The translations under genes were made by a program, and so were the position numbers. A stretch of DNA of 64,000 nt. Origin: Eledone cirrhosa (taxonomy: Eukaryota). Below the pieces are notes generated by a model that worked only from the letters and a program-made list of their open reading frames with translations, did not search any database and was not told the origin of the DNA. The DNA lies in contig OZ024744.1 in assembly GCA_964016885.1 (NCBI GenBank), positions 67,332,001-67,396,000 on the forward strand. Direction: 5' to 3'. Of this stretch, positions 16,487-64,000 are shown in pieces (within the stretch, counting starts at the first letter, position 1; every line of letters begins with the position of its first letter).

Positions 16487-16600
16487 ACATTTTTATTTTA
16501 TCATATAATATAACTTCAAACTAATTAATTAATTTATTTATTAAAATAACCAATACACACATAAATATATTTATCATTATCATATATTCACCTTATTATC

Positions 16601-23464: not shown

Positions 23465-23848
23465 ATGATTTCATTTATTAGCCACAAGGGCCAACATGTA
23501 GGGGACAATACAAAGACAGGGACAGTGGGGGTTTACAATAAGGTCGAGTAAAAGTGCACAATGGCAAGACTAATTTAACAATGAAGATATAAAAATATAA
23601 AATAAACTATGCATAAATATAACAAAATAAATTCCCCTATGGGGGTGGACGACCCATGGGTGACTCAGGTACCCCACCAATCCTGAACCACCATGCGCTT
23701 CTAGGGCACCCAGGGAGAGCACCCCTCTCCTCAAGTTAGCTAGCCTATAGGCGCATGGTCAGAGTAAGCCCATTCACACGGGCCATTCTCGCCACATTCA
23801 TCCACCTTTTAGCAAATGTACTGGGGGGGGGGGGGCAGCACTTCTCTG
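23465..23848 (-). mobile_element. Tx1-type LINE 3' fragment nested in the P2 3' UTR
   Basis: Translates REVL..STFAKRWMNVARMARVNGLTLTMRL*, homologous to the ORF2 end at 52545-52641. Its 3' end cccttgtggctaataaa..attatt matches 52861-52890. Confidence 0.8.
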
Positions 23849-29437: not shown

Positions 29438-29620
29438 GGGTGGGGGATTGGCAGTATCGGTAAAGCGCCGGACACCATGCTTTGCAGCGTAGACTTACGG
29501 TCCTTTATGGTCTGAGTTCAAATCCCACCGGGGTTAGATTTGCCTTTCATCCTTCCATGGTCAATAAATAAAGCACTAGTAATGCACTAGGGTCGATATA
29601 ATCGACTTTCCCCCTCCCCC
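29438..29620 (+). mobile_element. S1-related SINE, diverged
   Basis: gattggcagtatcggta...gagttcaaatcc...tttgcctttcatccttcc. Confidence 0.8.
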
Positions 29621-39060: not shown

Positions 39061-39223
39061 ACCAGCAATTACCCAGTACATTAGTGGAACTTTATTTTAT
39101 CGATCCCGTAAGGATGAAAGGAAAAGTTAACCGCGACGGAATTTAAACTCAGACCGTAAAGGGACGTAACTATGCTGGAAAGCATGGCGTCCGACCGTCT
39201 ACCGATACTGCCAATTCACCGCC
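39061..39223 (-). mobile_element. SINE family S1
   Basis: Reverse complement of the S1 consensus. Confidence 0.88.
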
Positions 39224-41558: not shown

Positions 41559-41739
41559 GGTGAATTGGCAGTATCGGTAGAGAGTCGAATATGCTCTCCA
41601 GCATAGTTACGTCCCTTTACAATGTGAGTTCAAATACCGCCGAGGTTAACTTTGCCTTTCATCTTTACGGGCTCGATTAAATAAAGTACCAGTAATGTAC
41701 TGGGTAATTGCTGGCCTTGTGCCAAAAGTAGAAACAATT
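41559..41739 (+). mobile_element. SINE family S1
   Basis: S1 consensus with a small deletion. Confidence 0.88.
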
Positions 41740-41769
41740 ATATTATTAATCTGGCCATAAGCAATCTGT

Positions 41770-42376: not shown

Positions 42377-43100
42377 TTGACACGCTAAAATGCAGCACGT
42401 TAAAGAGAAAGAGAAAGTAAATCATGATAGCTATCAAAACATATATGTTGTTCAAGAGTATAAATAAACAAGCCAGACTGTAAACATACAATTTAAACTA
42501 TTTGCTTTCTTGATTATTGTGCAATTAAATGCTTTATCGATTGAAACGGTATAACTGTAAACATTGATTAGAGCCATTAGGTAAATCTAGTTATAACAAA
42601 ATATCAGCTCAGGTAGCAGTTTCTCGCCATTTCCTGGCAATGAGCAATGCAATTTCTAAGCAATAAAACATATTCGAACAGAAACCGCACATTCTCTGTA
42701 AAAAAAAAGAAGAAAACAATCTTCATTTATTCAGGAGTCACATTCTGATTAGAAGATAAAATAACGTATTGATTAACAATTAAGTTAGTTGGTTTTAGAA
42801 TATCTTTGAGATCTTTGAAATTATATAATTTCATCGTGAAAGTAATATTGAATACTGATTATCTGGGTTAAAAAAGAAAAAAAAAAGATTAGTCGCTTTT
42901 TGTTGTTGTTGTTGTTTTAAAATATAAATTGCCACTTCAAAGATCAACATGGGGTTCTAATCATTACAGTTTAATTATCTTTACAGGATGTACAAGTGTT
43001 CACTTAGCCGTATTCTAAAATAATTTGAAATTTAAAACTCCCAAAGTGAACATATTGGTCTGCTGACAACAGAATGTTGAGATTATTATTATTATTATTA

Positions 43101-44232
43101 CAGTTGCATTTATCTTGCTTTATGTTCATACGAGTTATTACCAAGTCACAACCAGTGACCTCAAGAGACAACAGGGTCCGCCATGTTCAAGAAAGAACAT
43201 ACACACTCACACATGCATCTTTAGGTGTTTAGACTTGTGATGTACTTATATTGACAGAATCTTCCTTAGTATATAGGCAGTTCCCATTAGTACTATCTTT
43301 TGTATTTCTCCTATACGCGGGTTTCCTGGGATTTGCGATAAGTAATTATTAGACCCCTTAGGTATCATTCCTAGAGCGCCTACAACCACTGGTATTGTTT
43401 TAGTTCTCAACTTCCACATTTTTCCAATTTCTATCTCCAGGTCCTTATACTTGCTCAATTTTTCAAATGTTTTTTATAGATACATTCTTGTCTATTGTAA
43501 CGGACATATCAATTAGCAGGCATACCCTCTTTTTAAAGTCCTTCAGTACTATATCAGGTCTATTTGTATCTATTTTTCGGTCTGTTTGGATGCTAAAGTT
43601 CCACAAGATTGAGATGTGATCTTTTTCAAGTACGGGAGGTGGTTGATGCTCCCACCAATTCTTTTGATGGGGCAGGTCAAAAGGCTTATACATTATCCAA
43701 TGTATGTGTTGTGCAGCTCTGTCGTGCCTGTTTAAGTATTCGGTTGGAGTTATAGGACTGCACATTGAAATTATATGATCAATGGTCTCTGGTTGTTTTT
43801 TACATACACGGCATAATGGGTTGATCCATTTTTTATTATGTTGGCTTGATAATTTTTTGTTGGCAGACACTGATCTTGTGCTGATATAATCAGTCCTTCA
43901 ATCTCCGATTCCAGTCCAGAGGATGCCAACCACTGATGGATTAAAGTTTTGTCAAAATCAGGATTGTTAGCTCTTTCTGGGTATTTTGCATACAGAGGAT
44001 TTTCTTGCCATTTCTTAGCCAGTTTCTGTAGCAGTTCTTTTTTTGCAGTTACTTTTACCTGCTTTGCTTTTTCTGTGTTTTTCATTTCAGCAGTAAATAG
44101 AACTTCTGAAATTTGTAGTTCATTATTGTATCTTTGTGCATCTTGTGTAATGGAGTATGATCTTTTGATGCTTTCATGTTTCAAAACGAGTTTGAATCAT
44201 CCAATCATGTGATTCCCTTAGATATGACAATC
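43101..44232 (-). mobile_element. R4/Dong-type non-LTR element, family A, 5'-truncated (A1)
   Basis: CRVC..ETIDHIISMC..YLNRHD, NRPDIV and KYKDL..IPVVVGALG (RLE domain). (ATT)n on both sides. Confidence 0.92.
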
Positions 44233-44312
<80 letters not shown>

Positions 44313-44316
44313 ATTA

Positions 44317-44730
44317 CAGTTGCATTTATCTTGCTTTATGTTCATACGAGTTATCACCAAGTCACAACCAGTGACCTCAAAAGACAACAAGGTCCGCCAT
44401 GTTCAAGAAAGAACATACATACACACACATGCATCTTTAGGTGTTTAGACTTGTGATGTACTTATATTGACAGAATCTTCCTTAGTATATGGGCAGTTCC
44501 CATTAGTACTATCTTTTGTATTTCTCATACACGCGGGTTTCCTGGGATTTGGGATAAGTAATCATTAGACCCCTTAGGTATCATTCCTAGAGCGCCTACA
44601 ACCACTGGTATTGTTTTAGTTCTCAATTTCTACATTTTTCCAATTTCTATCTCCAGGTCCTTATACTTTCTCAATTTTTAAATGTTTTTTATAGATACAT
44701 TCTTGTCTATTGGAACGGACATATCAATTA
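44317..44730 (-). mobile_element. R4/Dong-type family A, 5'-truncated (A2)
   Basis: Same 3' end (cagttgcatttatcttg); (ATT)n flanks. Confidence 0.92.
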
Positions 44731-44745
44731 TTATTATTATAATTA

Positions 44746-45284
44746 CAGTTGCATTTATCTTGCTTTATGTTCATACGAGTTATCACCAAGTCACAACCAG
44801 TGACCTCAAGAGACAACAAGGTCCGCCATGTTCAAGAAAGAACATACATATTCACACATGCATCTTTAGTGTTTAGACTTGTGATGTACTTATATTGACA
44901 GAAACTTCCTTAGTATATGGGCAGTTCCCATTAATACTATCTTTTGTATTTCTCCTATACGCAGGTTTTCTGGGATTTGCGATATGTAATCATTAGACCC
45001 CTTAGGTATCATTCCCAGAGCGCCTACAACCACTGGTATTGTTTTAGTTCTCAATTTCCACATTTTTCCAATTTCTATCTCCAGGTCCTTATACGTGCTC
45101 AATTTTTCAAATGCTTTTATAGATACATTCTTGTCTATTGGAACAGACATATCAATTAGCAGGCATACCCTCTTTTGAAAGTCCTTCAATATTATATCAG
45201 GTCTGTTTGCATCTATTTTTCGGTCTGTTTGGATGCTAAAGTTCCACAAGATTGAGATGTGATCTTTTTCAAGTATGGGAGGTG
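44746..45284 (-). mobile_element. R4/Dong-type family A, 5'-truncated (A3)
   Basis: ORF 44890-45249 encodes the RLE domain; (ATT)n flanks. Confidence 0.92.
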
Positions 45285-45320
45285 ATTATTATTATTATTA
45301 TTATTATTGTTATTGTTATT

Positions 45321-46928
45321 CCTTGAATCTCAGTCATTGATGTTGGTTAACTGGAAAGTCCGTTGGATTGAATATCAAGCCACTACCTGCAGCCTCAGAT
45401 ATTCAGGACGTATCGGAGGGTTCTTGCCGTTCCAAGCAAGCATGCCTTTTGAAGCGTTCCAAAAAGCGTGGAGGGGCCGATTTTCTTTAACCATCCCTGG
45501 AAACCTTTGGAGATAGTCCCCAGTGCGCCTATGACAATCGGGATCACTTTGACTTCATGGCAGTTCCAAATCCTTTTCACCTCCCACTTTAGGTCCTGGT
45601 ATCGGTTAATTTTCTCCCTCTCCTTCTCTTGCACTCTCGTGTCGAACGGGCAGGCCACATCCACAATCAGGCACGATCTTTTTTCTTTGTCCACAACCAC
45701 CAGGTCAGGTCTATTGTGTTCCAGTTTTTTGTCCGTCTGTATCCTAAAATCCCACAGCACCTTCACCTGACTGTTCTCCATCACCGCCTCTGGCCTATGC
45801 TCATACCATTTCTCAGAATGTGGTAGATTGTTTACTTTGCACAGGTGCCAGTGGATCACCCTGCCCATCACATCGTGTCTCCAGCCCTTATAGTGGGTCT
45901 GGGCTAGGTGTTTACACTCGGACACAATGTGAGCCACAGTCTCCTCTCTCTCTCCACAGATCCTGCACAGTGGGCTAGCCTCCTCCTTGTAGATATGGTG
46001 CTTCAACCACTTCGTTTTGAGGGCCTGCTCCTGCGCAGCCATTAGCATTCCTTCTGTAGCCTTTTTGAGGTCTCCTCTTCTCAACCAGTTCCATGTCTGT
46101 GGATCTCTAAATTCAGTTTTCTCAAAGAAGGTACTATGAAGGGATTTTCCCTTAAGGCTGCTCTTCCTCCTTGATGTTATTTCCTCCTTGGATATCCCCT
46201 GGCCTACTGTCCCCTCCTTCAGTACAGCTCTGAGCATTGGCTCCTTACTATAGGTCACGTATTTGTATAGGTTGTTTTTCTCCATCTGAACACAGTCCTC
46301 TATGCTGATAAGACCTCTTCCACCCTCAGATCTCCTTAGGTAGAGTCTATCGACATCACTCCTCTTGTGGAACATGTTGTAGATAGTCAATAGCTTCCTA
46401 GTCTTCCTATCCATTTCTTTTTGTTCAGCAACATTCCATCTCAGAATTCCCGCACTGTACCTAATAATAGACACAGCTCGGGAATTTACTGCGCTTATGG
46501 CATTTCTGCTGTTCAGATGTGACTTCAATACGCTCCTTACTCTCCGAATGTATTCAGTTCTTAACAATTCCTTCATTTTTTTGTTCTTTATGCCATCAGC
46601 CTCCAGAACGCCCAAATACTTGTATCCTTCCTCAGAGTCAATTTCCTTTATCATCTCACCTGTTGGTATCTGGATCCCGTTACTTCTGCTCAACCTACCC
46701 CTCCTCATCACAATGACTCCACATTTACCAATACCAAACTGCATACATATATCACTGCTGAAAATACGGACAGTGTCAACAAGCACATCCAACTCCTTCT
46801 CACTTTTCCCGAAGAGCTTAAGATCGTCCATGAAGAGGAGGTGATTGATGGTAAGCTCTCCCCTTCCCAACTTGTATCCTGCTCTCACTTTTCGCAGCAT
46901 AATGGTCAAGGGCATCAGGGCAAGGACA

Positions 46929-46929
<1 letters not shown>
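45321..46929 (-). mobile_element. R4/Dong-type family B, 5'-truncated (B1)
   Basis: Uninterrupted 506-aa ORF 45395-46915 with [15 protein letters not shown] finger and NRPDLVV..DVACP RLE; (ATT)n flanks. Confidence 0.93.
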
Positions 46930-46982
<53 letters not shown>

Positions 46983-47190
46983 GGCGACCTACGTAGTAAA
47001 TCGTATCATCGTGAGCTCCGCAAAGGTTTGTTATTTCCGTTTGTTAAAAATTGCCATTTATGGAAAATTTTTATTGTTAACCATATATAAGCGCACATAC
47101 ATTGTTTTCCGAAAAGGACACCCAAAAATATTGGGGCCTTGTGCCCAAAATTTAAACTTTTATTATTATCAAAAAATTTCTTTGAAAAAA

Positions 47191-49187
47191 ATGGCTAATT
47201 AACCTCTGCACCAAGCAGCTGAAAGCCTTCCTCACAAATTAACACCTCACACCGACACCACCATTGTAAATGTTACTACGTTTGCCAACACTACAAAAAA
47301 TATAAGCAGTAGCAATATTTTAAATTTGTCTCAGGCAGACATTCATTTCCCGCCATTACCAATGACTGCAGGTGTTAAAGCCTCCACCACCACCACCAGC
47401 GCGACAACCACCACCCCCACCACCACCGCGACAACAGAAACAAAAGAAGAAAAAAATAAATTAACTCGTGATGTCGAAATGAAATCAAGCAAAATGGACT
47501 CTTCCCCACCAAAGACGACTGACGTCACCACCACCACAACTGAAACTAAAATTAATATTAACACAAGTAACGATAGCAACAACAACAACAATGACATTAT
47601 AAAAACCACCCTCAGTTTTGCCAGAGTAGCAAAACAGTTCGAAGCATTTACGGTAACTCAGGAGGATTTAGAAAATGCCAAACAAATGGTAAAGAAAGAT
47701 GGGTACAGGGTCAGCCTCATCCCCCCCCCACTAATAAAATGAAGCATCGGCGCCTATGCACCGTGTCGTATCGAACAATAAATGTAAAATCGCGCCGAGT
47801 GGAACGGGCATCCGAGTCCCAAATCCAAAAAGCTTTGGGACATGTGTGGGCAAGAAAAACCCACATTAGACGTGGGCAGAAGTATGGAACCGTGGACGTG
47901 TTCTTTGAAACACCAGAGGAGGCTAGAGAACACTCCAAGGCCCCATTAAGAAGTGACGACTTCACACTCGTCCCAAGCTATTGTGGCCAGAGACTCGTAA
48001 AGATCAGGGTGACCCACGTTCCACCGGCCATCGAAATTCCCTGGCTAATAGCGGCCGTCCTCGCCGGCATCGAAGCCAACACAAAAATAATAGCAATAGC
48101 AAAAGAAAAGCAGGAGAACTGGTCCGGATCTGGGATGGAGCTCCTGATCCAAGCGGACCAAAAAAGCATTGAGGAGATCCCAGAGGTAATAGACCTCACT
48201 GACGGCAGCCACCTCACGGTAATTGTCGAGGGCAGAAGACCTAGGTGTGTCGTTTGTGGTGAAGGAACCCACCTAAGGGCTTTCTGCCCTCAGGCTAAAA
48301 GGTTGAGGCCATCTCTCCTACCCACCCCAGTGACACAACCATCAACACCACCAGTAGCAGAGATGGCAGCAACAACTGTAGCAGCAACAACAGAAGCAAC
48401 CATAACAGCAACAATCCCAGCAACAGTAGCAAAACCAACACCACCACCACCACCAGTAAAACCAACACCACCACCACTCAACGCTTCAGAACTAGCACCA
48501 GCGCCTACACCATCCACCACGCCACAACCAAAACTAACGCCTGTGGAGGATTTTCCACTCCCCGGCCTATCACAACCGGAGACAGATTGTGACGACGAGG
48601 AGTGGGAAACGATATCCGGAAAAAAAAAAAGAAACCCAAAAAGAAAAAATTCTCTTCCTTCCCCCTCCAAAAACAAAATACAGAGGGAAACAAATAAATT
48701 AAGAAACAAAAAAGTTAGGACAGATATGCCACCATCCACACCAGCATCACCAACGCCATCAACCCAAACACCAACACCATCACCATCATTAACCCCAACA
48801 CCACCATCACCTACACCACAAAAGTCACCAAAATGCGAAACAGAAACAAACCCACAACAAACGCAAACAAAACAAAACAACCAAAACGATACACACTACA
48901 CAGCATTAAATTTGAACAACAAGCAATTATTACACTACATCCAACACAACACCAGCATCACAGAAAAAGACTACACAACAACCCCAAAATTCACACCACC
49001 TCCACACATACAAATCACTCGCATCACACAAAAAACGAACATGACACTAAAAAGAAAATTCCCCAAACACATCGGAGACTTCCGACAAGCACTCTCCAGG
49101 AGGATTTATAAGGACATCCTTCCTGAGGAGGCCACAAGCAGTGAAAAGGATGGAAAAACCGTCCTTTCCCTACGAGAAGTAAGGTAA
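47191..49187 (+). pseudogene. Tx1 ORF1 (zinc knuckle CVVCGEGTHLRAFC, Pro/Thr-rich), frameshifted
   Basis: ORFs 47326-47742 and 47739-49187. The start is inferred from homology to the ATG at 60290. Confidence 0.8.
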
Positions 49188-49221
49188 GTAGTCTTTCCCA
49201 TCTTTTCCACTCCTTTTCAAC

Positions 49222-52200
49222 ATGACCTCACTCAGAATAGGCAGCATAAATGCGCGTGGCTTGGGGTCGTCATGGAAGCAGGGCCACCTGCTCAACGACC
49301 TCAGGTCACTAAACATAGATGTAGTGGCCATCAGCGAGACCAGAATCTCCGAGGCACAGGCTTTCGCACCGATCTTCGGCGGCTACGATGTGTACGCATC
49401 TCCCAGCCGTCCGGGATCGGGGGGAAGAGTTACTGTGCTTTTTCGGAGAGGTTTGGATCTTGCCATACGGGCCATCTTCCTGGACCCAGAAGGTAAGTTG
49501 GTGGTGCTGGACGTGACCAGCGGAGACGGCCAAGCTTTCAGGTTAGTGGCCGTCTATGCCCCGACAGGAGCAGGGCGGCCTGATTTCTTCCGGCGTCTGG
49601 GGACCTTTCTTGGAACGTCCCGCTCTTTAGTGTTAGTGGGCGACTGGAACGGGATCTTAGATGCACGCTGGGATTGTGTGGGATTAGTGGATAGGGAAGG
49701 AGGGTGCAAGAGTCTCACCAACCTGCTCAGATGTTTTGAACTGTCTGACAGGTACCGAATGGATTTCCCGAATGTACCAATGTGGACTTGGACAAATCGC
49801 ATAGGGTCATCCAGATCATATCTAGATAGAGTATTTTGTAGGGAAATAGATAGCTCTAGCATAGGCTGTCCACAATTCAAGATAGTCAGCTACACGGACC
49901 ACAAATTCGTGATCTGTGTGCTTGACTTAGATAGGCTTCATAGACGAGGACCCGGCTACTGGAAGCTAAACGCGTCCTTACCAGCGCGCAAGGCCTACAG
50001 AGACCGGATTAGCGAACTAGTTAAGTGGGCGTTGACGGGGGCCATCGTCAACAACAAGTGGTGGTTTGCTCTGAAAAGAGCAATTAGAATAGAGTCCATT
50101 AGGTTTAGTAAGACTTTAGCAATAGAGAAAAATAGAGCAGAGGGAGAATTAGTTAGAAAATTAGATGAGGCGCTTAGCAAAGGCATCGCGACCGACGTAC
50201 TTGCGGTGAAATTGGCCCTTGACCAATTCTTCAATGCAAAGCACGAAGGCTGCGTTGTCAGAGGTAGGGTGCGTGCTCTCAGACACGAGGGGACGAAAGC
50301 CGTTCAATGGGCCCGAGTGGCGGAGGCGCGTCGTGGCAACAAAGCCACGATCCGGTCTTTGGTGGACCACGACGGGCGCATGCTACTCGATCCCGGGCAA
50401 ATGTGTGAAGCTTTTCAGCGACACTTCGCTCAACTGTTCGGGGGCAGTGGCGGGCTGGTTCGAGGGATGGACTTTAGTGTCTACCTCGACGGACTGCCGC
50501 GGCTTTCGGCCACTGAGGCGGAGTGTTGCGAAAAGCCGATAAGAACCGCTGAAGTACGGGATGCAATGACTAGTTGCACAAGGGGTAAATCGCCTGGTTT
50601 GGATGGTCTGCCCTATGAACTTTACGTACAAATGCCAAACTTGTTCGGAGGCCTCTTGGCGGACGTCTACTGCAACTGGCAACAGAACGGGAGAATTCCC
50701 AGCTCTGTTAGCCGAGGAGCGGTGGCGCTGCTGAGAAAGGATCCGAACAAGGGGGATAACATAGATAATTTTAGGCCCATAACTCTGCTAAACACAGAGT
50801 TCAATATTTTGGCCAAGGTGCTAGCAAAGAGGTTGGCGCTTGTCGTTGGTGGTCTGGTGGGAGAGGCACAGACATGCGCCATTCCCGACAGATCCATCCA
50901 CGACAACCTCCACCTCATGCGATACATCGTAGAGAGGGTAGCTAGGGAACCTGGCACGGGTGTTTCTTTGATCAATTTAGATCAGTCGAAAGCCTTCGAT
51001 AGGGTCGACCATCGTTACCTAGCGGCAGTCCTGAGAGCGGCTGGCTTTGGGCCTTTCATCAGAGGCTGGATCGCTGCCATGCACAGCGACATCTGCTCTG
51101 TAGTGAGAGTGAACGGTCACCTTTCGGAACCGTTCAACATCATGCGCTCGGTCCGCCAAGGATGTCCCCTCTCGTCCCTATTGTACGTATTGACTCTCGA
51201 GCTATTACTGCACAAACTGGAGACGTTGAGGGGGGTCCCGCGCGAACTAGGATGCGGAAGATCCGTGTCAGCATATGCCGACGATGTCACCGTAGTGGTG
51301 TCGAACGCCAAACACATCGAGGCTATCGGCACTACACTAAGAGAATACGAAGCGGTGACAGGAGCAATGATCAACCAGGAAAAGTCAGTGGGCCTGCAGC
51401 TCGGCACCTGGAGAGGCAGGTCCATGCCGTCCAACAGCGTCGTCGGGCGCTGGACGGACGGACCGGTTAAATTGCTAGGGTTCTGGTTCGGTCCAGACCT
51501 CCAGACGGACAAATACTGGGACGAGGTGACGAGCAGGGTGGCTTCTCTCAACCAGAAATGGGCCGAGAGGCAGCTATCCCTGAAAGGTCGAGCGGAGGTG
51601 GCTAACGCGTACATCGCTTCCGTCATCTACTACCGCCTGACCATCGTACCTTGTCCTAAGCCCCGCCTGACTGCGCTGGAGCGTTTGCTCTTTCGCTTCT
51701 TGTGGAAGGGACGCGCTCCGATGGTCAGGCGGTCCATCTGCTGTCAACACCCGCTACGTGGAGGGCTGGGCATGCCGTGGCTGATGATGCGCAGACACGC
51801 GCTCAGGCTACGACATCTCCACCTCTTCCTCGACGGTGATCAGGTGTGGTCGCCGTTTGCTAGACACGTTTTTCCCCAGCTCGTCTCCTTGACGGAACTG
51901 CAGTCCTGGGTCAAGCGAAGACCGAGAGGGAGCGCTTGGAGACTGGAATGTCTTCAGGCGCATACAGCCCTCGACCAATCGGGCAATGTGATCGGTGGAA
52001 ACTCCACCTTGGCGTTCTATAGGGGATTAGTGGAGGGGAAGAGCGACGACGTACTTGGAGAAACTCTAGGCGTCGACGAAAATCAACTAGCCAATCTCTT
52101 CGGAAGGACTTTCGGGCCGGGGCCTATGGACAACTTCCAGAAATCCCTGGCCTGGCAGTGCTACCGGGGTGCTTTGCCAGTTCGGGATAAACTTTACAGG

Positions 52201-52584
52201 CATGGAGGTGCCGTCAGCCGGGCATGTCCGAGATGCGCACAGGGCGACGAAACCGTCCTGCACGTACTCGTCCAGTGTCCGAGCATTGCTGACTTGTGGG
52301 TTTATGTCGAACACCTGCTGTCACGTGTAGGACGGATCCAGCTATCAGCTGAGTCATTCGTGAGGATTGTCCCGCGTCCTTCCTTTAACCAGGAAGGGCA
52401 GGCCGTTTTTATCTGTCTGGTGGCCATGGCGAAAGAGATAGTATTGTGGACACGTTTGAAAGGGCTGAAGACGAGCACTTACTTCTTCGGTGATGCCCTG
52501 ATTAACTATTTCAAATTTCATCTGAAAAGGAAAATCAGGGTAGAGAGGGAAGTGCTCTCTTCCCAGCATTTTGTTGAAAGATGA
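49222..52584 (+). CDS. Tx1 ORF2: APE endonuclease + reverse transcriptase + zinc finger (1120 aa)
   Basis: SINARG, VYAP, GDWN, LDRVF, TDH; KSPGLDG, RPITLLN, KAFDRV, RQGCPLS, AYADD; CPRC..H...C. TGA at 52582 is probably a mutated Trp codon, with the natural stop at 52641. Confidence 0.93.
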   Translation: MTSLRIGSINARGLGSSWKQGHLLNDLRSLNIDVVAISETRISEAQAFAPIFGGYDVYASPSRPGSGGRVTVLFRRGLDLAIRAIFLDPEGKLVVLDVTSGDGQAFRLVAVYAPTGAGRPDFFRRLGTFLGTSRSLVLVGDWNGILDARWDCVGLVDREGGCKSLTNLLRCFELSDRYRMDFPNVPMWTWTNRIGSSRSYLDRVFCREIDSSSIGCPQFKIVSYTDHKFVICVLDLDRLHRRGPGYWKLNASLPARKAYRDRISELVKWALTGAIVNNKWWFALKRAIRIESIRFSKTLAIEKNRAEGELVRKLDEALSKGIATDVLAVKLALDQFFNAKHEGCVVRGRVRALRHEGTKAVQWARVAEARRGNKATIRSLVDHDGRMLLDPGQMCEAFQRHFAQLFGGSGGLVRGMDFSVYLDGLPRLSATEAECCEKPIRTAEVRDAMTSCTRGKSPGLDGLPYELYVQMPNLFGGLLADVYCNWQQNGRIPSSVSRGAVALLRKDPNKGDNIDNFRPITLLNTEFNILAKVLAKRLALVVGGLVGEAQTCAIPDRSIHDNLHLMRYIVERVAREPGTGVSLINLDQSKAFDRVDHRYLAAVLRAAGFGPFIRGWIAAMHSDICSVVRVNGHLSEPFNIMRSVRQGCPLSSLLYVLTLELLLHKLETLRGVPRELGCGRSVSAYADDVTVVVSNAKHIEAIGTTLREYEAVTGAMINQEKSVGLQLGTWRGRSMPSNSVVGRWTDGPVKLLGFWFGPDLQTDKYWDEVTSRVASLNQKWAERQLSLKGRAEVANAYIASVIYYRLTIVPCPKPRLTALERLLFRFLWKGRAPMVRRSICCQHPLRGGLGMPWLMMRRHALRLRHLHLFLDGDQVWSPFARHVFPQLVSLTELQSWVKRRPRGSAWRLECLQAHTALDQSGNVIGGNSTLAFYRGLVEGKSDDVLGETLGVDENQLANLFGRTFGPGPMDNFQKSLAWQCYRGALPVRDKLYRHGGAVSRACPRCAQGDETVLHVLVQCPSIADLWVYVEHLLSRVGRIQLSAESFVRIVPRPSFNQEGQAVFICLVAMAKEIVLWTRLKGLKTSTYFFGDALINYFKFHLKRKIRVEREVLSSQHFVER

Positions 52585-52914
52585 GTGAGAGAAGCAAGTA
52601 TGGCCCGAATGAATGGGCCTTCTCTGATTATGTGTCTGTAAATTAAAGGTGGAAAACTGGGAGAGGGCATTTGCCCTGGTGGTCAGGGCCACTGTGGTCT
52701 TTTAATGGGCTTTCTCCACAAATGTCGCTCGGAAGTCTCCCCCCTATTGTGGAATTTTTCTTTGTTATTTTATTTCATCCACTGTTTTTTACACGCAGAA
52801 ATGCCCATTTGTACCGTCCTGTATTGTCCTGTACTGTCCTTAATGTCTACTTTATGTAAACCCTTGTGGTTAATAAAGAAAACATTATTATTATTATTAT
52901 TATTATTGTTATTA

Positions 52915-55900
52915 CAGTTGCATTTATCTTGCTTTATGTTCATACTAATTATCACCAAGTCACAACCAGTGACCTCAAGAGACAACAAGGTCCGCCATGT
53001 TCAAGAAAGAACATACATATTCACACATGCATCTTTAGTGTTTAGACTTGTGATGTACTTATATTGACAGAATCTTCCTTAGTATATGGGCAGTTCCCAT
53101 TAGTACTATGTTTTGTATTTCTCCTATACGCGGGTTTCCTGGGATTTGCGATAAGTAGTCATTAGACCCCTTAGGTATCATTCCCAGAGCACCTACAACC
53201 ACTGGTATTGTTTTAGTTCTCAATTTCCACATTTTTCCAATTTCTATCTCCAGGTCCTTATACTTGCTCAATTTTTCAAATGTTTTTATAGATACATTCT
53301 TGTCTATTGGAACAGACATATCAATTAGCCTGGCATACCCTCTTTTGAAAGTCCTTCAATATTATATCAGGTCTATTTGCATCTATTTTTCGGTCTGTTT
53401 GGATGCTAAAGTTCCACAAGATTGAGATGTGATCTTTTTCAAGTATGGGAGGTGGTTGATGCTCCCACCAATTCTTTTGATGGGGCAGGTCAAAATGCTT
53501 ACACATTATCCAATGTATGTATTCTGCAGCTCTGTCATGCCTGTTTAGGTATTCGGTTGGAGCTATAGGACTGCACATTGAAATTATATGGTCAATGGTC
53601 TCTGGTTGTTTTTTGCATACACGGCATAATGCGCTGCACCCATTTTTTATTATGTTGACTTGGTAATTTTTTGTTGGCAGACACTGATTTTGTGCCGATA
53701 TAATCAGTCCTTCAGTCTCCGATTTCAGTCCAGAGGATGCCAACCACTGATGGGTTAAAGTTTTGTCAACATCAGGATTGTTAGCTCGCTCTGGGTATTT
53801 TCCATACAGAGGCTTTTCTTGCCATTTCTTAGCCAGTTTCTGTAGCAGTTCTTTCCTTGCAGTTACTTTTACCTGCTTTGCTTTTTCTGTGTTTTCCATT
53901 TCAGCAGTAAATGGGACTTCTGAAATTTGTAGTCCATTACTGTATCTTTGTGCATCTTTTGTAATGGAATATGATCTTTTGATGCTTTCGTGTTTCAAAA
54001 CGAGTTTGATCATCCAATCATGTGATTCCCTTAGATATGTAGATAATCCAATTGTTGCAGTTTTCAACGCAATGTCTAACTGGATTAACCCACGTCCTCC
54101 TTCTTTCCTGGGGAGATATATTCTATCTATATCTGCCTTAGGGTGATGCATTCTGTGCATGGTTAAGAATTTTCGAATTTTTGTATCGAGCCTACGGATC
54201 TCTGTGCTTGACCAGTTGATGACATTGTAACTGTAGGTTACTACTGGTATGGCAAGCGTGTTTATGGCATCGATCCTATTCCTTGCATTCAATTCCGTTC
54301 TTAAGATTGCTCTTACTCTGCGATAACATTCCTTCCTTATCCTTTCCCTCATTGTCGAGTGCTTGATTCCGTCTCCTTCACAAACACCTAGATATTTGTA
54401 AGTTTGTTCTTGATCAAGTTCTCTTATCACGTTCCCCCGATCAAGATTAATGTCTGAACTCTTTAGCAGCTTTCCTCTGGTGAACGTTGCTTTGGCGCAT
54501 TTATCTAGTCCAAACTCCATTTTAATGTCATCACTGAACTGCTCCACAGTGGATAATAGCCCTTGCAATTGTTCATCATTTTTTGCAAATAGTTTCAGGT
54601 CATCCATGTAGAACAGGTGATTAATGGTTTTGTCATAGACTTTATATCCATGTTTTGTTTCATTGAGCATTTTACTTAATGGTATAAGTGCGATGCAGAA
54701 TAAAAGCGGTGATAAAGAGTCACCCTGAAAAATTCCACAATTAATATTAACTTCTCCAGCTTCCAATGATTTGGTTTCACTATTCAAAAGGAGTGTCGTT
54801 TTCCATGTCTTCATACTGAATGACAAAAACCTCCTGACACCGGGGGATATTTTGAAAATCTCTAAACATTTTTCAATCCAACTGTGTGGCAAACTATCGA
54901 ATGCTTTTTTATAATCTATCCAAGCAATCGATAGATTTTTGTGTCTATTATGACAATCTTCCAGTATCATTTTGTTAACCAGAAGCTGATCCTTACAGCC
55001 ATATGAGCCTCGTTTACACCCTTTCTGCTCAATGGGAAATAGGTCATTTGTTATCAGGTGGTCATATGTGTATTCAGTTAGGACTGATGTTAAAATTTTA
55101 TACATTGTGGTCAAGCAAGTTATCGGTCTGTAATTTTGGGGATTGTTTGTCTCATCATTCTTCGGAAGCAGGAATGTAATGCCGTTAACTAGCCATGATG
55201 GTATCTTTTCTGGCTCCTTAACTATTTCATTGTAACGTTGGGCTGACAGCTCATGAGACTCTGTGAAGGCATTTATCCAAAAGTTTTGTATTTTGTCTTT
55301 GCCTGGGGATTTCCATTTGCTGGTTTTTCTTAGAGCCAAGCGCAACTGTTCAACTGTTATATTTTCCCATATTTGTTCCTCAAGGTGAGCTGTATCTTTC
55401 ATTTGTCTGTCTATCCATGGGGCATGTATGTTATGAACTTTTTCTTCGGCCCAGATCTTTTCCCAGAATTCTTGCACTTCCTCCTTGGGTGGTATTGATT
55501 TAGCAGTTATTGTTGACTTACCAATTTTTCTGTAGAAGTTTCTTTGGTTGTTTTTGAACATATTATTGTCCTTATAGAATCTAGATCGTTTTTCAAAGCG
55601 CCTTATACGAGCAGCTTTGGCCGACACTTTTTGCTTGATTATTTCTATCAGCATGTCTATGTCACATGTTGATTTTATACTGTAATTTTTTTTCAATTTT
55701 CTAAGTTTAGTTTGTTTAACATGTTCACCTACTTTATAGTTTGTTAAAATTTCTATGTCAGATCGGAGAAGGTTTATTTGGCGATTGATGTTCTCTTGCC
55801 AAGTAGATTTCTTGTGGGAATTCCTTTGTTTTTTCATCTTCACTCCACATAAGTGAGTGGTGACTTTAGCCGATGCATAATAGAGATGATTTAAATCAGT

Positions 55901-56880
55901 AATGTTTAGTTTGTTTGTGATGATAATGTTTTTGAGAATTATGTTAGTCTTGTGTATTATCTTTTGGTTCTGTTTGGAGTTCTGGATCTTAGGGAGGGTG
56001 TCTCGTTGCCCCATGTCAGATTCTTTCATTTTCATCCATTCGATCATAATTTCATCCTTCAAGTTGGCAAGTTCATTCTCATTCATTTCTTTATCATTTA
56101 CGATCTCATTATTTTCATTTGGAGTTTCATCCTGAGCATGCACTCCCTCCACTTTTTCGATCCTTTCTTTAATTTGTTCTGTTGCCAGTGATTCCGCCCC
56201 AACCCTGGGATTCGAAGTGTTACAGTTTACCTCGTTTTCACTGACACATGTTTCATTTTCCCTTCGCTGACTTTGTACTAATAGCTTGATCTGATCAATT
56301 TCTATATCAGTTAGTAACTTTTTTTTACAATATTTCTTCGTATATTGGCTAGTTTGTTACTGTCAATATAGCCTCTGTTTTCGAGATGTTTCTTTTTCTA
56401 GTTGATATATGTCTGTTCTGTATTCGATGTATTTGATGGGTAGTACATGGCAGTGTAGAAAGCCTCAAGGACTTCTTTATTATCTTCCCTTGACCATTTT
56501 TCTCTCTTTTTCTTTGGATTTCTTGGTGGTGAGCATTGAGGGCCAACAGTAGGAGTATTCCGGTTATGGGAGGTCTCCAGCTCCAAAGTGATGGGAAGGT
56601 TTGAACCATTAGCTGATTTTTCGACCCCAGTCTGGTTCCTCTCTGAGAGACGCGGCCCTTTTTTACCCGGGTGACGGCCGATCCGGTATGAGATTTTATC
56701 ATTAGACATTTACTTTATTTTGTCGCGTTTTATCCTTATCCGCCAAGGGGTAATCATTTCGTGTTACCACTTCTAGAACGAGTGTCAACCAAGACTAGAG
56801 GGGTCGTTCTCCCCTAGAGACACGGCTATTCCCCGCCGGCCGCCATCCCGGTATTTCTTGGTCACGGGGTTTTCTTTTTG
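52915..56880 (-). mobile_element. R4/Dong-type family A, apparently full length (A4)
   Basis: ORF pieces 56398-56709 (KREKWSREDN motif), 53321-56152 and 53059-53319. The 5' boundary is approximate. Confidence 0.92.
53059..56709 (-). pseudogene. Single-ORF RT-RLE polyprotein of A4 with a few frameshifts
   Basis: [51 protein letters not shown] finger and NRPD. Comparison with A3 shows a 1-bp insertion near 53330. Confidence 0.93.
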
Positions 56881-57638
56881 TTGTTTTTTTAAATTGTTAT
56901 TATCATGAGTGGTTCCTTAATGTGAGCATTGCGTGGCTTAAGAATGAAATTATTAATAATTGTCTCCACTCCAGGCACAAGGCCAGCAATCACCCAGTGC
57001 ATTACAATAATATAATATACTTTTTGCTGAAGTTGCCTGTTATTGTTGTTGGCTATGTCGGTGGTGGTGCCGGGGCTTTTTATATTGTTGGTGAGGAAGG
57101 GGTGAGCCAGCAGTCCCATAGTTGTTGATGTTGACGTTTGGCCGGTGGCCAGGTCACTAAGTCAATCTATTTATATCTTTTGCTAGCCTCTCCCTTGTCT
57201 AGTGATACCGCCACCTTCCCCTTTCTCTCTCAAGTTAACAGGGGAATAGTGGTGGTAGCAATGAAGGAGTGGTGGCGGCGGTGATGGGATAGTGGTAGCA
57301 ATGATGGATGGGGTGGTGGAGGCGGTGGCGTTGTCGTTACTGAGTTTTGTGATATGTAGTATCTATGAGTTTGTGTTCGTATGTTTAATATATATTGTGT
57401 TGACATATTCTCGTAAAATTTGAATTAAACATTTTGTTAAAACTTGAGACAATAATAATAGTAATTATTATTATGATGCTGGGATTGATGGTGGTGGTGG
57501 TGAATTTGCCGTTATCTGGCTGTTATATTTAGTGTGATGGGATAGGTGGTGTATCAAGTTTCTGGTGTTCGTGAAATTGCTGTTATTTGGCTGTTCTATA
57601 TAGTGTAGACAGATTATTATTATTATTATTATTTATTA

Positions 57639-57685
<47 letters not shown>

Positions 57686-57697
57686 GTTATTGTTATT

Positions 57698-59728
57698 CCT
57701 TGAATCTCAGTCATTGATGTTGGTTAACTGGAAAGTCCGTTGGATTGAATATCAAGCCACTACCTGCAGCCTCAGATATTCAGGACGTATCGGAGGGTTC
57801 TTGCCGTTCCAAGCAAGCATGCCTTTTGAAGCGTTCCAAAAAGCGTGAAGGGGCCGATTTTCTTTAACCATCCCTGGAAACCTTTGGAGATAGTCCCCAG
57901 TGCGCCTATGACAATCGGGATCACTTTGACTTCATGGCAGTTCCAAATCCTTTTCACCTCCCACTTTAGGTCCTGGTATCGGTTAATTTTCTCCCTCTCC
58001 TTCTCTTGCACTCTCGTGTCGAACGGGCAGGCCACATCCACAATCAGGCACGATCTTTTTTCTTTGTCCACAACCACCAGGTCAGGTCTATTGTGTTCCA
58101 GTTTTTTGTCCGTCTGTATCCTAAAATCCCACAGCACCTTCACCTGACTGTTCTCCATCACCGCCTCTGGCCTATGCTCATACCATTTCTCAGAATGTGG
58201 TAGATTGTTTACTTTGCACAGGTGCCAGTGGATCACCCTGCCCATCACATCGTGTCTCCAGCCCTTATAGTGGGTCTGGGCTAGGTGTTTACACTCGGAC
58301 ACAATGTGAGCCACAGTCTCCTCTCTCTCTCCACAGATCCTGCACAGTGGGCTAGCCTCCTCCTTGTAGATATGGTGCTTCAACCACTTCGTTTTGAGGA
58401 CCTGCTCCTGCGCAGCCATTAGCATTCCTTCTGTAGCCTTTTTGAGGTCTCCTCTTCTCAACCAGTTCCATGTCTGTGGATCTCTAAATTCAGTTTTCTC
58501 AAAGAAGGTACTATGAAGGGATTTTCCCTTAAGGCTGCTCTTCCTCCTTGATGTTATTTCCTCCTTGGATATCCCCTGGCCTACTGTCCCCTCCTTCAGT
58601 ACAGCTCTGAGCATTGGCTCCTTACTATAGGTCACGTATTTGTATAGGTTGTTTTTCTCCATCTGAACACAGTCCTCTATGCTGATAAGACCTCTTCCAC
58701 CCTCAGATCTCCTTAGGTAGAGTCTATCGACATCACTCCTCTTGTGGAACATGTTGTAGATAGTCAATAGCTTCCTAGTCTTCCTATCCATTTCTTTTTG
58801 TTCAGCAACATTCCATCTCAGAATTCCCGCACTGTACCTAATAATAGACACAGCTCGGGAATTTACTGCGCTTATGGCATTTCTGCTGTTCAGATGTGAC
58901 TTCAATACGCTCCTTACTCTCCGAATGTATTCAGTTCTTAACAATTCCTTCATTTTTTTGTTCTTTATGCCATCAGCCTCCAGAACGCCCAAATACTTGT
59001 ATCCTTCCTCAGAGTCAATTTCCTTTATCATCTCACCTGTTGGTATCTGGATCCTGTTACTTCTGCTCAACCTACCCCTCCTCATCACAATGACTCCACA
59101 TTTACCAATACCAAACTGCATACATATATCACTGCTGAAAATACGGACAGTGTCAACAAGCACATCCAACTCCTTCTCACTTTTCCCGAAGAGCTTAAGA
59201 TCGTCCATGAAGAGGAGGTGATTGATGGTAAGCTCTCCCCTTCCCAACTTGTATCCTGCTCTCACTTTTCGCAGCATAATGGTCAAGGGCATCAGGGCAA
59301 GGACAAACAACAGAGGGGACAGGCTATCTCCCTGGAAGATACCTCTCTTGATCTTCACGCTTCCCAAGGATACTCCAGTTGATGTCAACTCTGTCTCCCA
59401 GGACCCCATACTCCTGCCCAGCAACTGTCTGATGTTATCTGCCACCCTGAAGATCTCCAGGCTTTTGGTGATCCAGGAATGAGGCACCATGTCAAATGCC
59501 TTTCTGTAGTCTATCCATCCCATGGCAAGATCAGTGTGTCTCCTCCTGCAATTCCCCATTACCATCTTATCAATAAGCAACTGGTCCTTTGTACCACGTG
59601 ACTTCTTTCGGCATCCTTTCTATTCGTCCGGCAACAAGTTGTTTGTGTGGAGGTGATGGTAGATTTCCTCAGACACAATGCTCGTCAACAGTTTCCACAT
59701 TACGGGCAGACATGTGATAGGTCTTTAG
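57698..59728 (-). mobile_element. R4/Dong-type family B, 5'-truncated (B2)
   Basis: 602-aa ORF 57772-59580 is nearly identical to B1 but has a different 5' truncation point. Confidence 0.93.
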
Positions 59729-59798
<70 letters not shown>

Positions 59799-59799
<1 letters not shown>

Positions 59800-60052
59800 A
59801 GTTGCATTTATCTTGCTTTATGTTCATACGAGTTATCACCAAGTCACAACCAGTGACCTCAAGAGACAATAAGGTCCGCCATGTTCAAGAAAGAACATAC
59901 ATACTCACACATGCATCTTTAGTGTTTAGACTTGTGATGTACTTATATTGAGAGAATCTTCCTTAGTATATGGGCAGTTTCCATTAGTACTATCTTTTGT
60001 ATTTCTCCTATACGCGGGTTTCCTGGGATTTGCGATAAGTAATCATTAGACC
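59799..60052 (-). mobile_element. R4/Dong-type family A, short 3' fragment (A5)
   Basis: Same 3' end; (ATT)n flanks. Confidence 0.92.
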
Positions 60053-60075
60053 TTATTATTATTATTATTATTATT

Positions 60076-63000
60076 GGCGACCTACGTAGTAAATCGTATT
60101 ATCGTGAGCTCCGCAAAGGTTTGTTATTTTCAGTTGTTTAAAATTGCCATTTATGGAAATTTTTTATTGTTAACTGTATATAAGTGCACATACATTGTTA
60201 TCTGAAAAGGACACCCAAAAAGATTGGGGCCTTGAGCCCAAAATTTAAACTTTTATAATTATTAAACAAAAATTTTTCTTTGAAAAACCATGGACGACTC
60301 AGAGTCACAACTTCCTCACAAACTAACACCTCACACCGACACCACCATTGTAAATATTACTACGTTTGCCAACACTAAAAATATAAGCAGTAGCAATATT
60401 TTAAATTTGTCTCAGGCAGACATTCATTTCCCGCCATTACCAATGACTGCAGGTGTTAAAGCCGCCACCCCCACCACCACCACAGCGATAACAGAAAAAA
60501 AATAAAAAAATAAATTAACTCATGATATCGAAATGAATTCAACCAAAATGAACTCTTCCACAACGAACACCACTGACGCCACCACCAACACAACTGAAAC
60601 AAAAATTAACAATAACAAAAATAACGATAACAGCAACAATGAAATTAAGAAAACCACCCTGAGTTTTGCCAGAGTAGCAAAACAGTGCGAAGCATTCCAA
60701 GTAACTCAGGAGGAATTAGAAGAAGCCAAAAAGATGGTAAAGAAAGATGGGTAGAGGGTCAGCCTCACTCCCCCCCTCCTCACACATACCTAATAAAATG
60801 GAGCATCGGAGCCTATGCACCGTGTCATATCGAACAATAAATGTAAAATCGCGCCGAGTGGAGCGGACATCCGAGTCCCAAATCCAAAAAGCTTTGGGAC
60901 ATGTGTGGGCAAAAAAAACCATATCAGACGTGGGGAGAAATATGGAACCGTGGACGTGTTCTTTGAAACACCACAGGAGGCCAGAGAACACTCCATGGCC
61001 CCATTAAGAAGTGACGACTTCACACTCGTCCCAAGCTACTGTGGCCAGAGACTCGTGAAGATCAGGGTGACCCACGTTCCACCAGCCATCGAAATTCCCT
61101 GGCTAATAGCTGCCGTCCTCGCCGGCATCGCAGCCAACACCAAGATAATCGAAATAGCGAAAGAAAAGCAAGAGAACTGATCCGGATCTGGGATGGACCT
61201 CCTGATACAAGCGGACCAAAAAAGCATTGAGGAGATCCCAGAGGTAATAGATCTCACTGACGGCAGCCACCTCACCGTAATCGTCGAAGGCAGAAGGCCT
61301 AGGTGTGTCGTTTGTGGTGAAGGAACCCACCTAAGGGCTTTCTGCCCTCAGGCTAAAAGGTTGAGGCCACCTCTCTTAACCACCTCAGTGACTCAACCAT
61401 CAACACCACCAGCAGCAGAGATGGCAGCAACAACTGTAGCAGCAACAACAGAAGCAACTGTAACAGCAACAACCACGGCAACAGTAGCAAAACCAACACC
61501 ACCACCACCCTACGCGCCAGAACTAGCACCAGCGCCTACACCATCCACCACGCCACAACCAAAACCAACGCTTGTGGAGGATTTTCCACTCCCCGGCCTA
61601 TCACAACTGGAGAGAGATTGTGACGACGAGGCGTGGGAAACGGTATCAGGAAAAAAGAAAAAAAGAAGCCAAAAAAGAAAAAATTCTCTTCCCTCCCCCT
61701 CCAAAAACAAAATACAGAGAGAAACAAATAAACTATCAAACAAAAAAGTTAGGACAGATATGCCACCATCCATACCAGCATCACTAACCCCATCACCACA
61801 AACACCAACACCATCACCATCATTAGCCCAACACCACCATCACCAACACCACAAAAGTCACCAAAAAGCGAAACAAACAAACCCACAACAAACGCAAACA
61901 AAACAAAACAACCAAAACGATACACACTACACAGCATTAAATTTGAACAACAACCAATTATTACACTACATGCAACACAACACCAGCATCACAGAAAAAG
62001 ACTACACAACAACCCAAAAGTTCACACCACCTCCACACATACAAATCACTCGCATCACACAGAAAACGTACACGACACTAAAACAAAAATTCCCCAAAGA
62101 CATCGGAGACTTCCGACAAACACTCTCCAGGAGGATTTATAAGGACATCCTTCCGGAGGAAGCCACAAGCAGTGAAAAAGATGGAGAAACCATCCTTCCT
62201 CTACCAGAAGTAAGGTAAGTGGTCTTTCCCATCTTTTCCACTCCATTTCAACATTACCTCACTCAGAATAGGCAGCATAAATGCGCTTGGCTTGGGGTCG
62301 TCATGGAAGCAGGGCCACCTGCTCTACGACCTCAGGTCACTAAACATAGATGTAGTGACCATCAGCGAGACCAGAATCTCCGAAGCACGGGCCTTCGCAC
62401 CGATCTTCGGTGGCTACGATGTGTACGCATCTCCCAGCCGCCCTGGATCGGGGGGAGGAGTTGCTGTGCTTTTTCGGACGTGACCAGCGGAGACTGGCAA
62501 GCTTTCAGGTTAGTGGCCGTCTATGCCCCGACAGGAGCAGGGTGGCCTGATTTCTTCCGGCGTCTGGAAACCTTTCTTGGAACGTCCCGCTCTTTAGTGT
62601 TAGTGGGCGACTGGAACGGGATCTTAGATGCACGCTGGGACTATGTGGGATTAGCGGATAGGGGTGGAGGGTGCAAGAGCCTCACCAGACTGCTCAGGCG
62701 TTTTGAACTGTCTGACAGGTGCCGATTGGATTTCCTGAATGTGCCAATTTGGACTTGGACAAATCGCATAGGGTCATCCAGATCATATCTAGATAGAGTA
62801 TTTTGTAGGGAAATAGATAGCTCTAGCATAGGCTGTCCACAATTCAAGATAGTCAGCTACACGGACCACAAATTCGTAATCTGTGTGCTTGACTTAGATA
62901 GGCTTAATAGACGAGGACCCGGCTACTGGAAGCTAAACGCGTCCTTACCAGCACGCAAGGCCTACAGTGACTGGATTAGCGAACTAGTTAGCGGGCGTTG

Positions 63001-64000
63001 ACGGGGGCCATCGTCAGCAACAAGTGGTGGGTTGCTCTGAAAAGAGCGATTAGAATAGAGTCCATTAGGTTTAGTAAGGCTTTAGCAATAGAGAAAAATA
63101 GAGCAGAGGGAGAATTAGTTAGAAAATTAGATGAGGCGCTTAGCAAAGGCATCGCGACCGACGTACTTGCGGCGAAATTGGCCCTTGACCAAAATCTTCA
63201 ATGCAAAGCACGAAGGCTGCGTTGTCAGAGCTAGGGTGCGTGCTCTCAGACACGAGGGGATGAAAGCCGTTCAATGGGCCCGAGTGGCGGAGGCGCGTCG
63301 TGGCAACAAAGCCACGATCCGGTCTTTGGTGGACCACGACGGGCGCATGCTACTCGATCCCGGGCAAATGTGTGAAGCTTTCCAGCGACACTTCGCCCAG
63401 CTGTTCAGGGACAGCGGCGGGCCGAATCGAGGGATGGACTTTAGTGTCTACCTCGAAGGACTGCCGCGGTTCTCGGCCACTGAGGCGGAGTGTTGCGAAA
63501 AGCTGATAACAGCCGCTGAAGTACGGGAGGCAATGACTGGCTGCACAAGGGGTAAATCGCCTGGTTTGGATGGTCTGCCCTATGAACTTTACGTACAGAT
63601 GCCAAACTTGTTCGGAGGCCTCTTGGCGGATGTCTACTGCAACTGGCAACAGAACGGGAGAATTCCCAGCTCTGTGAGCCGAGGAGCTGTGGGGCTGCTG
63701 AGAAAGGATCCGAACAAGGGGGATAACATAGATAATTTCAGGCCCATTACTCTGCTAAACACAGAGTTCAATATTTTGGCCAAGGTGCTAGCAAAGAGAT
63801 TGGCGCTTGTCGTTGGTGGTCTGGTGGGAGAGGCAGAGACGTGCGCTATTCCCGACAGATCCATCCACGACAACCTCCACCTTATGCGATACATCATAGA
63901 GAGGGTAGCTAGGGAACGTGGCACGGGTGGGTCCTACCTAGCGGCAGTCATGAGGGCGGCTGGCTTTGGGCCCGTCTTCAGAGGCTGGATCGCTGCCATG
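60076..64000 (+). mobile_element. Second Tx1-type LINE (T2), decayed, running off the window
   Basis: Homologous to 46983-51080 with stops, frameshifts and small deletions; preceded by (ATT)n. Confidence 0.93.

What the first reader, a model, noticed from the sequence alone, without database searches (positions are those of the whole stretch)
43082..64000. At least 21-kb polarised train of nine LINEs from two endonuclease classes sharing one (TAA)n target
Seen: A1-A2-A3-B1-T1-A4-B2-A5-T2, separated by (ATT)n apart from about 0.7 kb at 56880-57612. No LINE interrupts another. All seven RLE-type copies are minus and both APE-type copies are plus. Different 5' truncations show independent insertions. 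Established: Dong-type R4 elements target TAA repeats and some Tx1 families target microsatellites. Inference: three families converge on one microsatellite using opposite strands, forming a self-extending array reminiscent of TRAS/SART in telomeric repeats. It could serve as a heterochromatic or piRNA-source locus.
Basis: partly seen in the sequence, partly recalled or inferred. Interest (0 to 1): 0.75.

Follow-up and report, generated by a model that had tools for sequence, protein, structure and literature searches.

The report
Polarised LINE trains on ATT microsatellites
Two unrelated kinds of jumping gene sit end to end on ATT repeats here and across this animal genome, facing opposite ways relative to the repeat, likely because their enzymes cut opposite strands and each landing leaves a fresh repeat on both sides; this 33-kb train is real but one of many.

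Summary
Observation confirmed and extended. The nine LINEs, their strands and (ATT)n linkers are as described. The 0.7-kb 'gap' is family A's 5' UTR, so the train is unbroken. It continues past the window through two more Tx1-like families (U, V): 11 elements, five families, about 33 kb, mid-chromosome. Of 296 element ends elsewhere, 278 touch the tract in the family's orientation and 0 in the opposite one, including 68 of 81 5'-truncated ends. On 84 Mb of one chromosome, 84 of 84 neighbouring copies within 10 kb share polarity, with strong clustering. Best reading: Dong-like RLE and Tx1-like APE LINEs independently target (TAA/ATT)n from opposite strands; each insertion likely splits a tract and so adds a target. 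Dong on TAA and TRAS/SART-type opposite polarity are known; I found no paper on an (ATT)n-targeting Tx1-like lineage. Clade labels were not tested by tree. The piRNA/heterochromatin role is untested and unnecessary. The scan reported this same system at eight or more other loci of this genome (AI notes).

The parts
43082..43100 (+). (ATT)n tract, left end of train
43101..44232 (-). A1, 5'-truncated RLE LINE, family A
   Evidence: 94.7% to A4
44233..44316 (+). (ATT)n linker
44317..44727 (-). A2, 5'-truncated
44728..44745 (+). short degenerate ATT linker
44746..45284 (-). A3, 5'-truncated
   Evidence: 94.9% to A2, so not a recent tandem copy of it
45285..45320 (+). ATT/GTT linker (includes B's AAC-variant tail)
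45321..46928 (-). B1, 5'-truncated RLE LINE, family B (young)
46929..46982 (+). (ATT)18, head-to-head junction: faces two 5' ends, so it is neither element's 3' tail
46983..52883 (+). T1, full-length APE LINE (Tx1-like): frameshifted ORF1 with CCHC knuckle; ORF2 49192-52584 with APE, RT and CCHC, stopping 19-20 codons earlier than U's ORF2
52884..52914 (+). ATT linker, tail-to-tail junction
52915..57612 (-). A4, near full-length RLE LINE (RT, CCHC, RHD, RPD; two frameshifts); 56881-57612 is its 5' UTR
57613..57697 (+). ATT linker with poly-T interruption
57698..59728 (-). B2, 5'-truncated; open frame of 615 aa with RT, CCHC, RHD and PD..D
59729..59798 (+). (ATT)23 linker
59799..60052 (-). A5, 5'-truncated
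60053..60075 (+). ATT linker, head-to-head junction
60076..64000 (+). T2, full-length decayed Tx1-like copy, ending at window-equivalent 65806; followed outside the window by U1 (65846-71627) and V1 (71676-75721)

Best explanation
This is a train of eleven LINE copies from five families joined by (ATT)n tracts, with the two RLE families reading (TAA)n and the three APE families reading (ATT)n on their sense strand, and it likely grew by repeated sequence-specific insertion in which the two endonuclease classes nick opposite strands of one microsatellite and each insertion leaves a tract on both sides. Shown: tracts at both ends of copies genome-wide, fixed family-to-tract orientation, clustering, and different truncations. 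From established knowledge: target-primed reverse transcription starts at a nick on the strand opposite the element's sense strand. Inferred: the nicked strands; target gain by splitting; 5' joining by 1-4-nt annealing to the tract; and an extra concentration factor (region or tract quality), because uniform splitting alone under-predicts occupancy. The train is most likely a by-product of selfish targeting, with no host function needed.
For:: 278 of 296 ends in the family's orientation, 0 opposite, 18 neither; 5' ends 124 of 139; truncated 5' ends 68 of 81; background 109 of 20000. U 5' ends 30 of 30 on ATT; all 19 other V copies have ATT units upstream, some only one or two units or degenerate; among 271 exactly tagged 3' ends on C1:1-83.9 Mb, 84 of 84 neighbours under 10 kb share polarity (53 pairs cross-family), versus 7 of 14 at 20-50 kb; 84 close pairs against 8.6-25.9 expected. 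Head-to-head junctions (two here; 16 of 29 T 5' ends) have tracts that no 3' tail explains; microhomology of 2 nt or more at 7 of 12 A and 6 of 18 B truncations versus 12% and 8% in controls; similar mixed trains at most other stretches fetched around clustered hits. Domain classes.
Against: No empty allele was seen (one search had no cover of the flank), so the order and target duplication at this locus are not shown. Neighbour occupancy is higher than a uniform model predicts (92 of 168 vs 9 of 36, p=0.002; the seeded sets are young copies mostly on large chromosomes and include four near-identical tandem A copies). U 5' ends have an A/B neighbour in 1 of 30 but T 5' ends in 16 of 29 (p=8e-6), which equal sharing of tracts does not explain. 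Homogeneous arrays (U x10, A x4) point to a second route. 18 of 296 ends had no tract. No biochemistry.
Confidence: 0.82

Rival explanations
1. Tracts are only 3' tails written by the elements; later elements land in or beside them passively, and polarity is a side effect.
For: 3' ends carry tracts almost without exception (154 of 157); B has its own AAC-variant tail units; about 8 of 18 tracts in 590 kb of random sequence adjoin one of these LINEs.
Against: 5' ends carry tracts in 124 of 139 cases, including head-to-head junctions and copies with no LINE or SINE neighbour detected (6 of 29 T, 14 of 30 U, 7 of 20 A). Tail synthesis may add length but cannot replace targeting.
Confidence: 0.04
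2. Trains grow mainly by DNA-level duplication (unequal exchange between flanking tracts) or are assembly artefacts.
For: C28:114.44 Mb holds four A copies differing by 0-3 nt in 4930. C1:423.36-423.42 Mb holds ten full-length U copies, every linker 15 nt, three neighbours differing by 0-5 substitutions. B1 and B2 are 99.8% identical.
Against: At this locus all truncation points differ, A copies are 94.7-96.8% and T copies 89-92% identical to each other, and B1/B2 share only variants also in dispersed copies. 53 of 84 close pairs on C1 are cross-family. Several copies within the U array differ as much as dispersed copies do.
Confidence: 0.06
3. The train is a host-used heterochromatic or piRNA source, a transposon trap in which read-through on either strand gives antisense RNA to one class.
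For: The geometry permits it (inference). Occupancy exceeds the uniform model. PIWI/piRNA pathways are expressed in molluscs (PMC6128900, search listing and abstract start only).
Against: Over half of tagged copies on C1 (151 of 271) lie in such clusters, so the locus is not singular; polarity is fully explained by targeting; the position is mid-contig.
Confidence: 0.08

Closest known systems
Dong (R4 clade; Bombyx Dong, DongAg, DongBg of the snail Biomphalaria)
   Same: TAA microsatellite target (PMC3812793, passages read); single ORF with RT and C-terminal CCHC-RLE; Dong-R4 is among the recently active LINEs of Octopus vulgaris (PMC13282606, parts 1-2 of 3 read).
   Different: Two families 41% identical in protein share a 75%-identical 5' head; no HDV-like ribozyme was found, whereas B. 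mori Dong has one (PMC3774820, passages read); the target is shared with APE elements; clade not tested by tree.
Microsatellite-targeting Tx1: Kibi (TC)n, Koshi (TTC)n, crocodilian Tx1 on (TTCC)n/(TTTC)n
   Same: L1-group APE LINE with strict microsatellite targeting (PMC4494074, passages and section 15 read; PMC3812793 passages).
   Different: Target is (ATT)n, not listed in those passages; three families use it; antiparallel to RLE elements on the same repeat. The figure and supplements of PMC4494074 and Repbase could not be seen and may list such a target.
TRAS/SART in (TTAGG)n of Bombyx mori
   Same: Two family groups inserted in one repeat in opposite orientation, forming arrays (PMC10088271, passages read).
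   Different: TRAS and SART are both R1-clade and telomeric; here RLE versus APE, dispersed interstitial microsatellites, no telomere link.

Membership tests
Dong / R4 clade (families A, B) | RT followed by CCHC knuckle, RHD and PD..D restriction-like endonuclease; no APE | tested here: met
   (B2 complete; A4 split by a frameshift after RPD); nearest solved structures are R2 proteins, E 1e-26.
Dong / R4 clade (families A, B) | Insertion in (TAA)n, sense strand reading TAA | tested here: met
   3' ends 102 of 102, 5' ends 74 of 87, none opposite.
Dong / R4 clade (families A, B) | 5' HDV-like ribozyme as in B. mori Dong | tested here: inconclusive
   No hit with my own descriptor in the first 1400 nt (no positive control run); Rfam scan of 42000-64000 gave nothing at gathering level, but the window lacks the first 243 nt of A.
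Dong / R4 clade (families A, B) | RT phylogeny within R4 against named references | not testable with these tools
   Homologue searches returned no clade-named reference; filed as Dong-like.
Tx1 clade (families T, U, V) | ORF2 with N-terminal APE, RT of the L1 group and C-terminal CCHC | tested here: met
   PF03372, PF00078, PF13966; human L1 ORF2p E 2e-48 versus R2 E 7e-20; motifs in T1 and U1.
Tx1 clade (families T, U, V) | ORF1 with a CCHC zinc knuckle (feature recalled, not from a call) | tested here: met
   CX2CX4HX4C in T1 and U1 ORF1.
Tx1 clade (families T, U, V) | Sequence-specific insertion (Kojima's criterion: over 20% of flanks) | tested here: met
   T 5' 48 of 50, 3' 50 of 52; U 5' 30 of 30, V 19 of 19.
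Tx1 clade (families T, U, V) | RT phylogeny within Tx1 rather than L1 proper | not testable with these tools
   No named reference among 34 homologues; filed as Tx1-like.
TRAS/SART telomeric system | Two groups inserted antiparallel in one repeat | tested here: met
TRAS/SART telomeric system | Telomeric repeat at chromosome ends; both R1-clade APE | tested here: not met
   67.4 of 136.5 Mb; RLE versus APE.
piRNA cluster | Dense, uniquely mapping 26-31-nt RNAs | not testable with these tools
   No RNA holder on record was listed.

The most novel reading that the evidence does not exclude
A cross-clade retrotransposon guild: RLE and APE families do not merely share (ATT)n but build and prefer each other's junctions (T sits head-to-head with A/B in 16 of 29 cases, its sister U in 1 of 30), so antiparallel trains are self-assembling traps in which read-through on either strand yields antisense RNA against the other class, a dispersed, self-building piRNA source.
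Probability: 0.1. Interest if true: 0.72.

Novelty: new variant of a known kind. Interest (0 to 1): 0.45.

Why it matters
It shows two unrelated endonuclease folds converging on one microsatellite from opposite strands, with thousands of natural insertions (exact tags: A 2372, B 4097, T 2473, U 317). That gives a ready system for asking how APE and RLE enzymes choose a strand on a simple repeat, and a mechanistic candidate for TE hotspots in large, likely octopod, genomes. The ATT target appears new for Tx1-like elements. The individual locus has no special status.

Tried and rejected
Rfam scan of 42000-64000: three chance hits far below gathering scores. DNA search with B's 3' end found nothing because common words are skipped; replaced by an exact pattern. 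HDV-like descriptor: no hit in A, B or T, only AT-rich spurious hits in U. Sequencing runs: no RNA holder listed; the contigs laid say nothing on piRNA or expression. Empty-allele test: the flank 42472-43083 had no cover in four runs. Clade naming by homologue names and Atlas gave nothing. Xiong and Eickbush 1993 is not held; supplements of PMC4494074 are unreadable and may bear on novelty. Rejected: the 0.7-kb gap as host DNA; A2/A3 or B1/B2 as local duplicates; a telomeric role.
Full report
Setting. The window is G000:C28:67332001-67396000 in a 3.0-Gb genome; C28 is 136.5 Mb, so the locus is mid-contig. The organism is likely an octopod; this is my inference from repeat make-up and was not tested.

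Observation. Self-BLAST, tandem-repeat and ORF scans confirm A1-A2-A3-B1-T1-A4-B2-A5-T2 with an ATT tract at each junction. A and B carry RT, CCHC, RHD and a PD..D-type nuclease motif on minus; T carries APE, RT and CCHC on plus. The nearest solved structures are R2 proteins for A and human L1 ORF2p for T. Two corrections. First, 56881-57612 is A's 5' UTR: all 29 other A copies fetched continue into it, and full-length A has ~243 more nt. Second, the train runs on: T2 to 65806, a full-length family-U copy with open ORF1 and ORF2 frames (65846-71627), and an older family-V copy (71676-75721), each after an ATT tract. That makes 11 elements, five families, about 33 kb.

Target or tail. I annotated loci from searches seeded on T 3', T 5', A 5', B 3' and A 3' ends plus 59 arbitrary 10-kb stretches. 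The window's own loci, hits under 100 bp or 85% identity, and 5' ends inside the variable 5' UTRs were left out. Of 296 ends, 278 lie at a tract in the family's orientation (A/B sense AAT; T/U sense ATT), 18 at none and 0 at the opposite one; truncated 5' ends 68 of 81; background 109 of 20000. Duplicates were removed by sequence, not coordinates. U 5' ends are on ATT in 30 of 30; all 19 other V copies have ATT units upstream, some very short. Head-to-head junctions, two of them here, hold tracts that neither neighbour could have written as a tail.

Polarity and clustering. Exact tags count 2372 A, 4097 B, 2473 T and 317 U copies (lower bounds, subfamily-specific). The listed positions are complete for C1:1-83.9 Mb (271 ends). 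Neighbours under 10 kb share tract polarity in 84 of 84 pairs, 18 of 24 at 10-20 kb and 7 of 14 at 20-50 kb. There are 84 close pairs against 8.6 expected at random and 25.9 when density is kept in 250-kb bins; 151 of 271 ends lie in clusters. Stretches fetched around clustered hits show the same mixed trains. At C2:200.24 Mb an AAT tract abuts an ATT tract and two B copies face each other: orientation follows the tract, not the neighbourhood.

Mechanism. By the established target-primed model, an element whose sense strand reads TAA was primed on the ATT strand, and the reverse for T/U/V; opposite-strand nicking is therefore inferred, not shown. Full-length T and U begin after a complete ATT unit in 29 of 29 and 30 of 30 cases; most full-length A begin after TAA. 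Truncated A and B share 2 nt or more with the tract in 7 of 12 and 6 of 18 junctions against 12% and 8% in controls; only 31 junctions with a perfect abutting tract passed this filter. Each insertion leaves a tract on both sides, so targets multiply where elements already are. Across seeded ends 92 of 168 have another LINE across the tract. With about 18 tracts per 590 kb and occupancy 0.5-0.6, a geometric model gives tens to hundreds of trains of ten or more, so this locus is expected. Against the simple model: only 9 of 36 tract sides in arbitrary sequence are occupied (p=0.002), and T and U differ sharply in having an A/B neighbour at the 5' side (16 of 29 vs 1 of 30). Regional density, tract length or family age must add; the samples were also drawn differently (best hits vs exact tags).

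Independent insertion here. Truncations differ; A copies are 94.7-96.8% alike and T1/T2 89-92%; B1 and B2 share a haplotype with dispersed copies and no private variant among the 25 rows compared. Elsewhere a second route is visible: four near-identical A copies and ten U copies with uniform 15-nt linkers suggest DNA-level duplication or assembly effects.

Known systems. Dong on TAA, Kibi on TC and Koshi on TTC (PMC3812793, passages; PMC4494074, passages and section 15), TRAS/SART antiparallel in telomeric repeats (PMC10088271, passages), and a Dong 5' ribozyme (PMC3774820, passages) are published. Dong-R4 and L1-Tx1 are reported as recently active or expanded in octopods without mention of targets in the parts I read (PMC13282606 parts 1-2 of 3; PMC8967140 and PMC9115989, passages); PMC4640811 passages gave background. 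Nine searches showed no (ATT)n-targeting Tx1 and no mixed trains; Repbase and supplements were not seen. Clade names rest on architecture and target, not on a tree.

Scan history. Eight unreviewed notes on other DNA of this genome describe the same system, with trains up to 60-70 kb; none concerns this place. They came after my own tests and are not independent support.

Verdict. Real, genome-wide, a new variant of known target-specific LINE behaviour; the locus is ordinary for this genome, and a piRNA role is untested. Interest 0.45.

Noticed in passing
G000:C1:423361889-423420172 (L285-L291): Ten full-length family-U copies in tandem, every linker 15 nt, several with open ORF1 and ORF2 frames; some neighbours identical, others as distant as dispersed copies. 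24 of the first 100 listed U 5' ends lie in such same-family arrays.
   Followed up: partly
G000:C28:114443349-114463144 (L160-L162): Four tandem full-length A copies differing by 0-3 nt in 4930, with a broken ORF in the copy translated: DNA duplication or assembly artefact.
   Followed up: partly
5' heads of A (L069) and B (L153-L154): A and B share a ~340-nt 5' head at 75% identity although their coding DNA barely aligns and proteins are 41% identical; suggests 5' UTR/promoter exchange. A also has variant 5' UTRs.
   Followed up: partly
window 56945-57005: A's 5' UTR contains the 3' end of a very common ~190-nt SINE; two A copies are truncated at the ATT-like sequence beside it.
   Followed up: partly
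window 2726-2912, 4549-4737, 15454-15641, 16600-16984, 29442-29591, 39062-39221, 41559-41747: Copies of that SINE; it often neighbours the LINEs across ATT tracts and may be mobilised by the Tx1-like families.
   Followed up: partly
L255-L284 versus L032-L060: U 5' ends neighbour Tx1-like tails (12 of 30) but rarely A/B (1 of 30); T 5' ends neighbour A/B in 16 of 29. Unexplained.
   Followed up: partly
L071, L089, L223, L029, L034: Some junction tracts drift to AAG/TTC units, and one U-like copy (87% identical) ends in (TTC)n, hinting at a sister family with another target.
   Followed up: no
window 13446-15035, 24857-25828, 31954-33432: Decayed Penelope-like reading frames (resemblance recalled; no Pfam hit; sequences).
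   Followed up: no
window 17898-20625 (-): Fragmented Gypsy-like LTR retroelement pol (RT-RNaseH, integrase zinc finger).
   Followed up: no
window 5243-5913, 6113-6541, 10143-10308: Long palindromic (self-inverted) elements, MITE-like.
   Followed up: no
window 23467-23847 (-): Old 3' fragment of a U-like element, 76% identical.
   Followed up: no
window-equivalent 77700-83900 (L062-L063): Nest of older, rearranged Tx1-like fragments without ATT linkers just right of the train.
   Followed up: no
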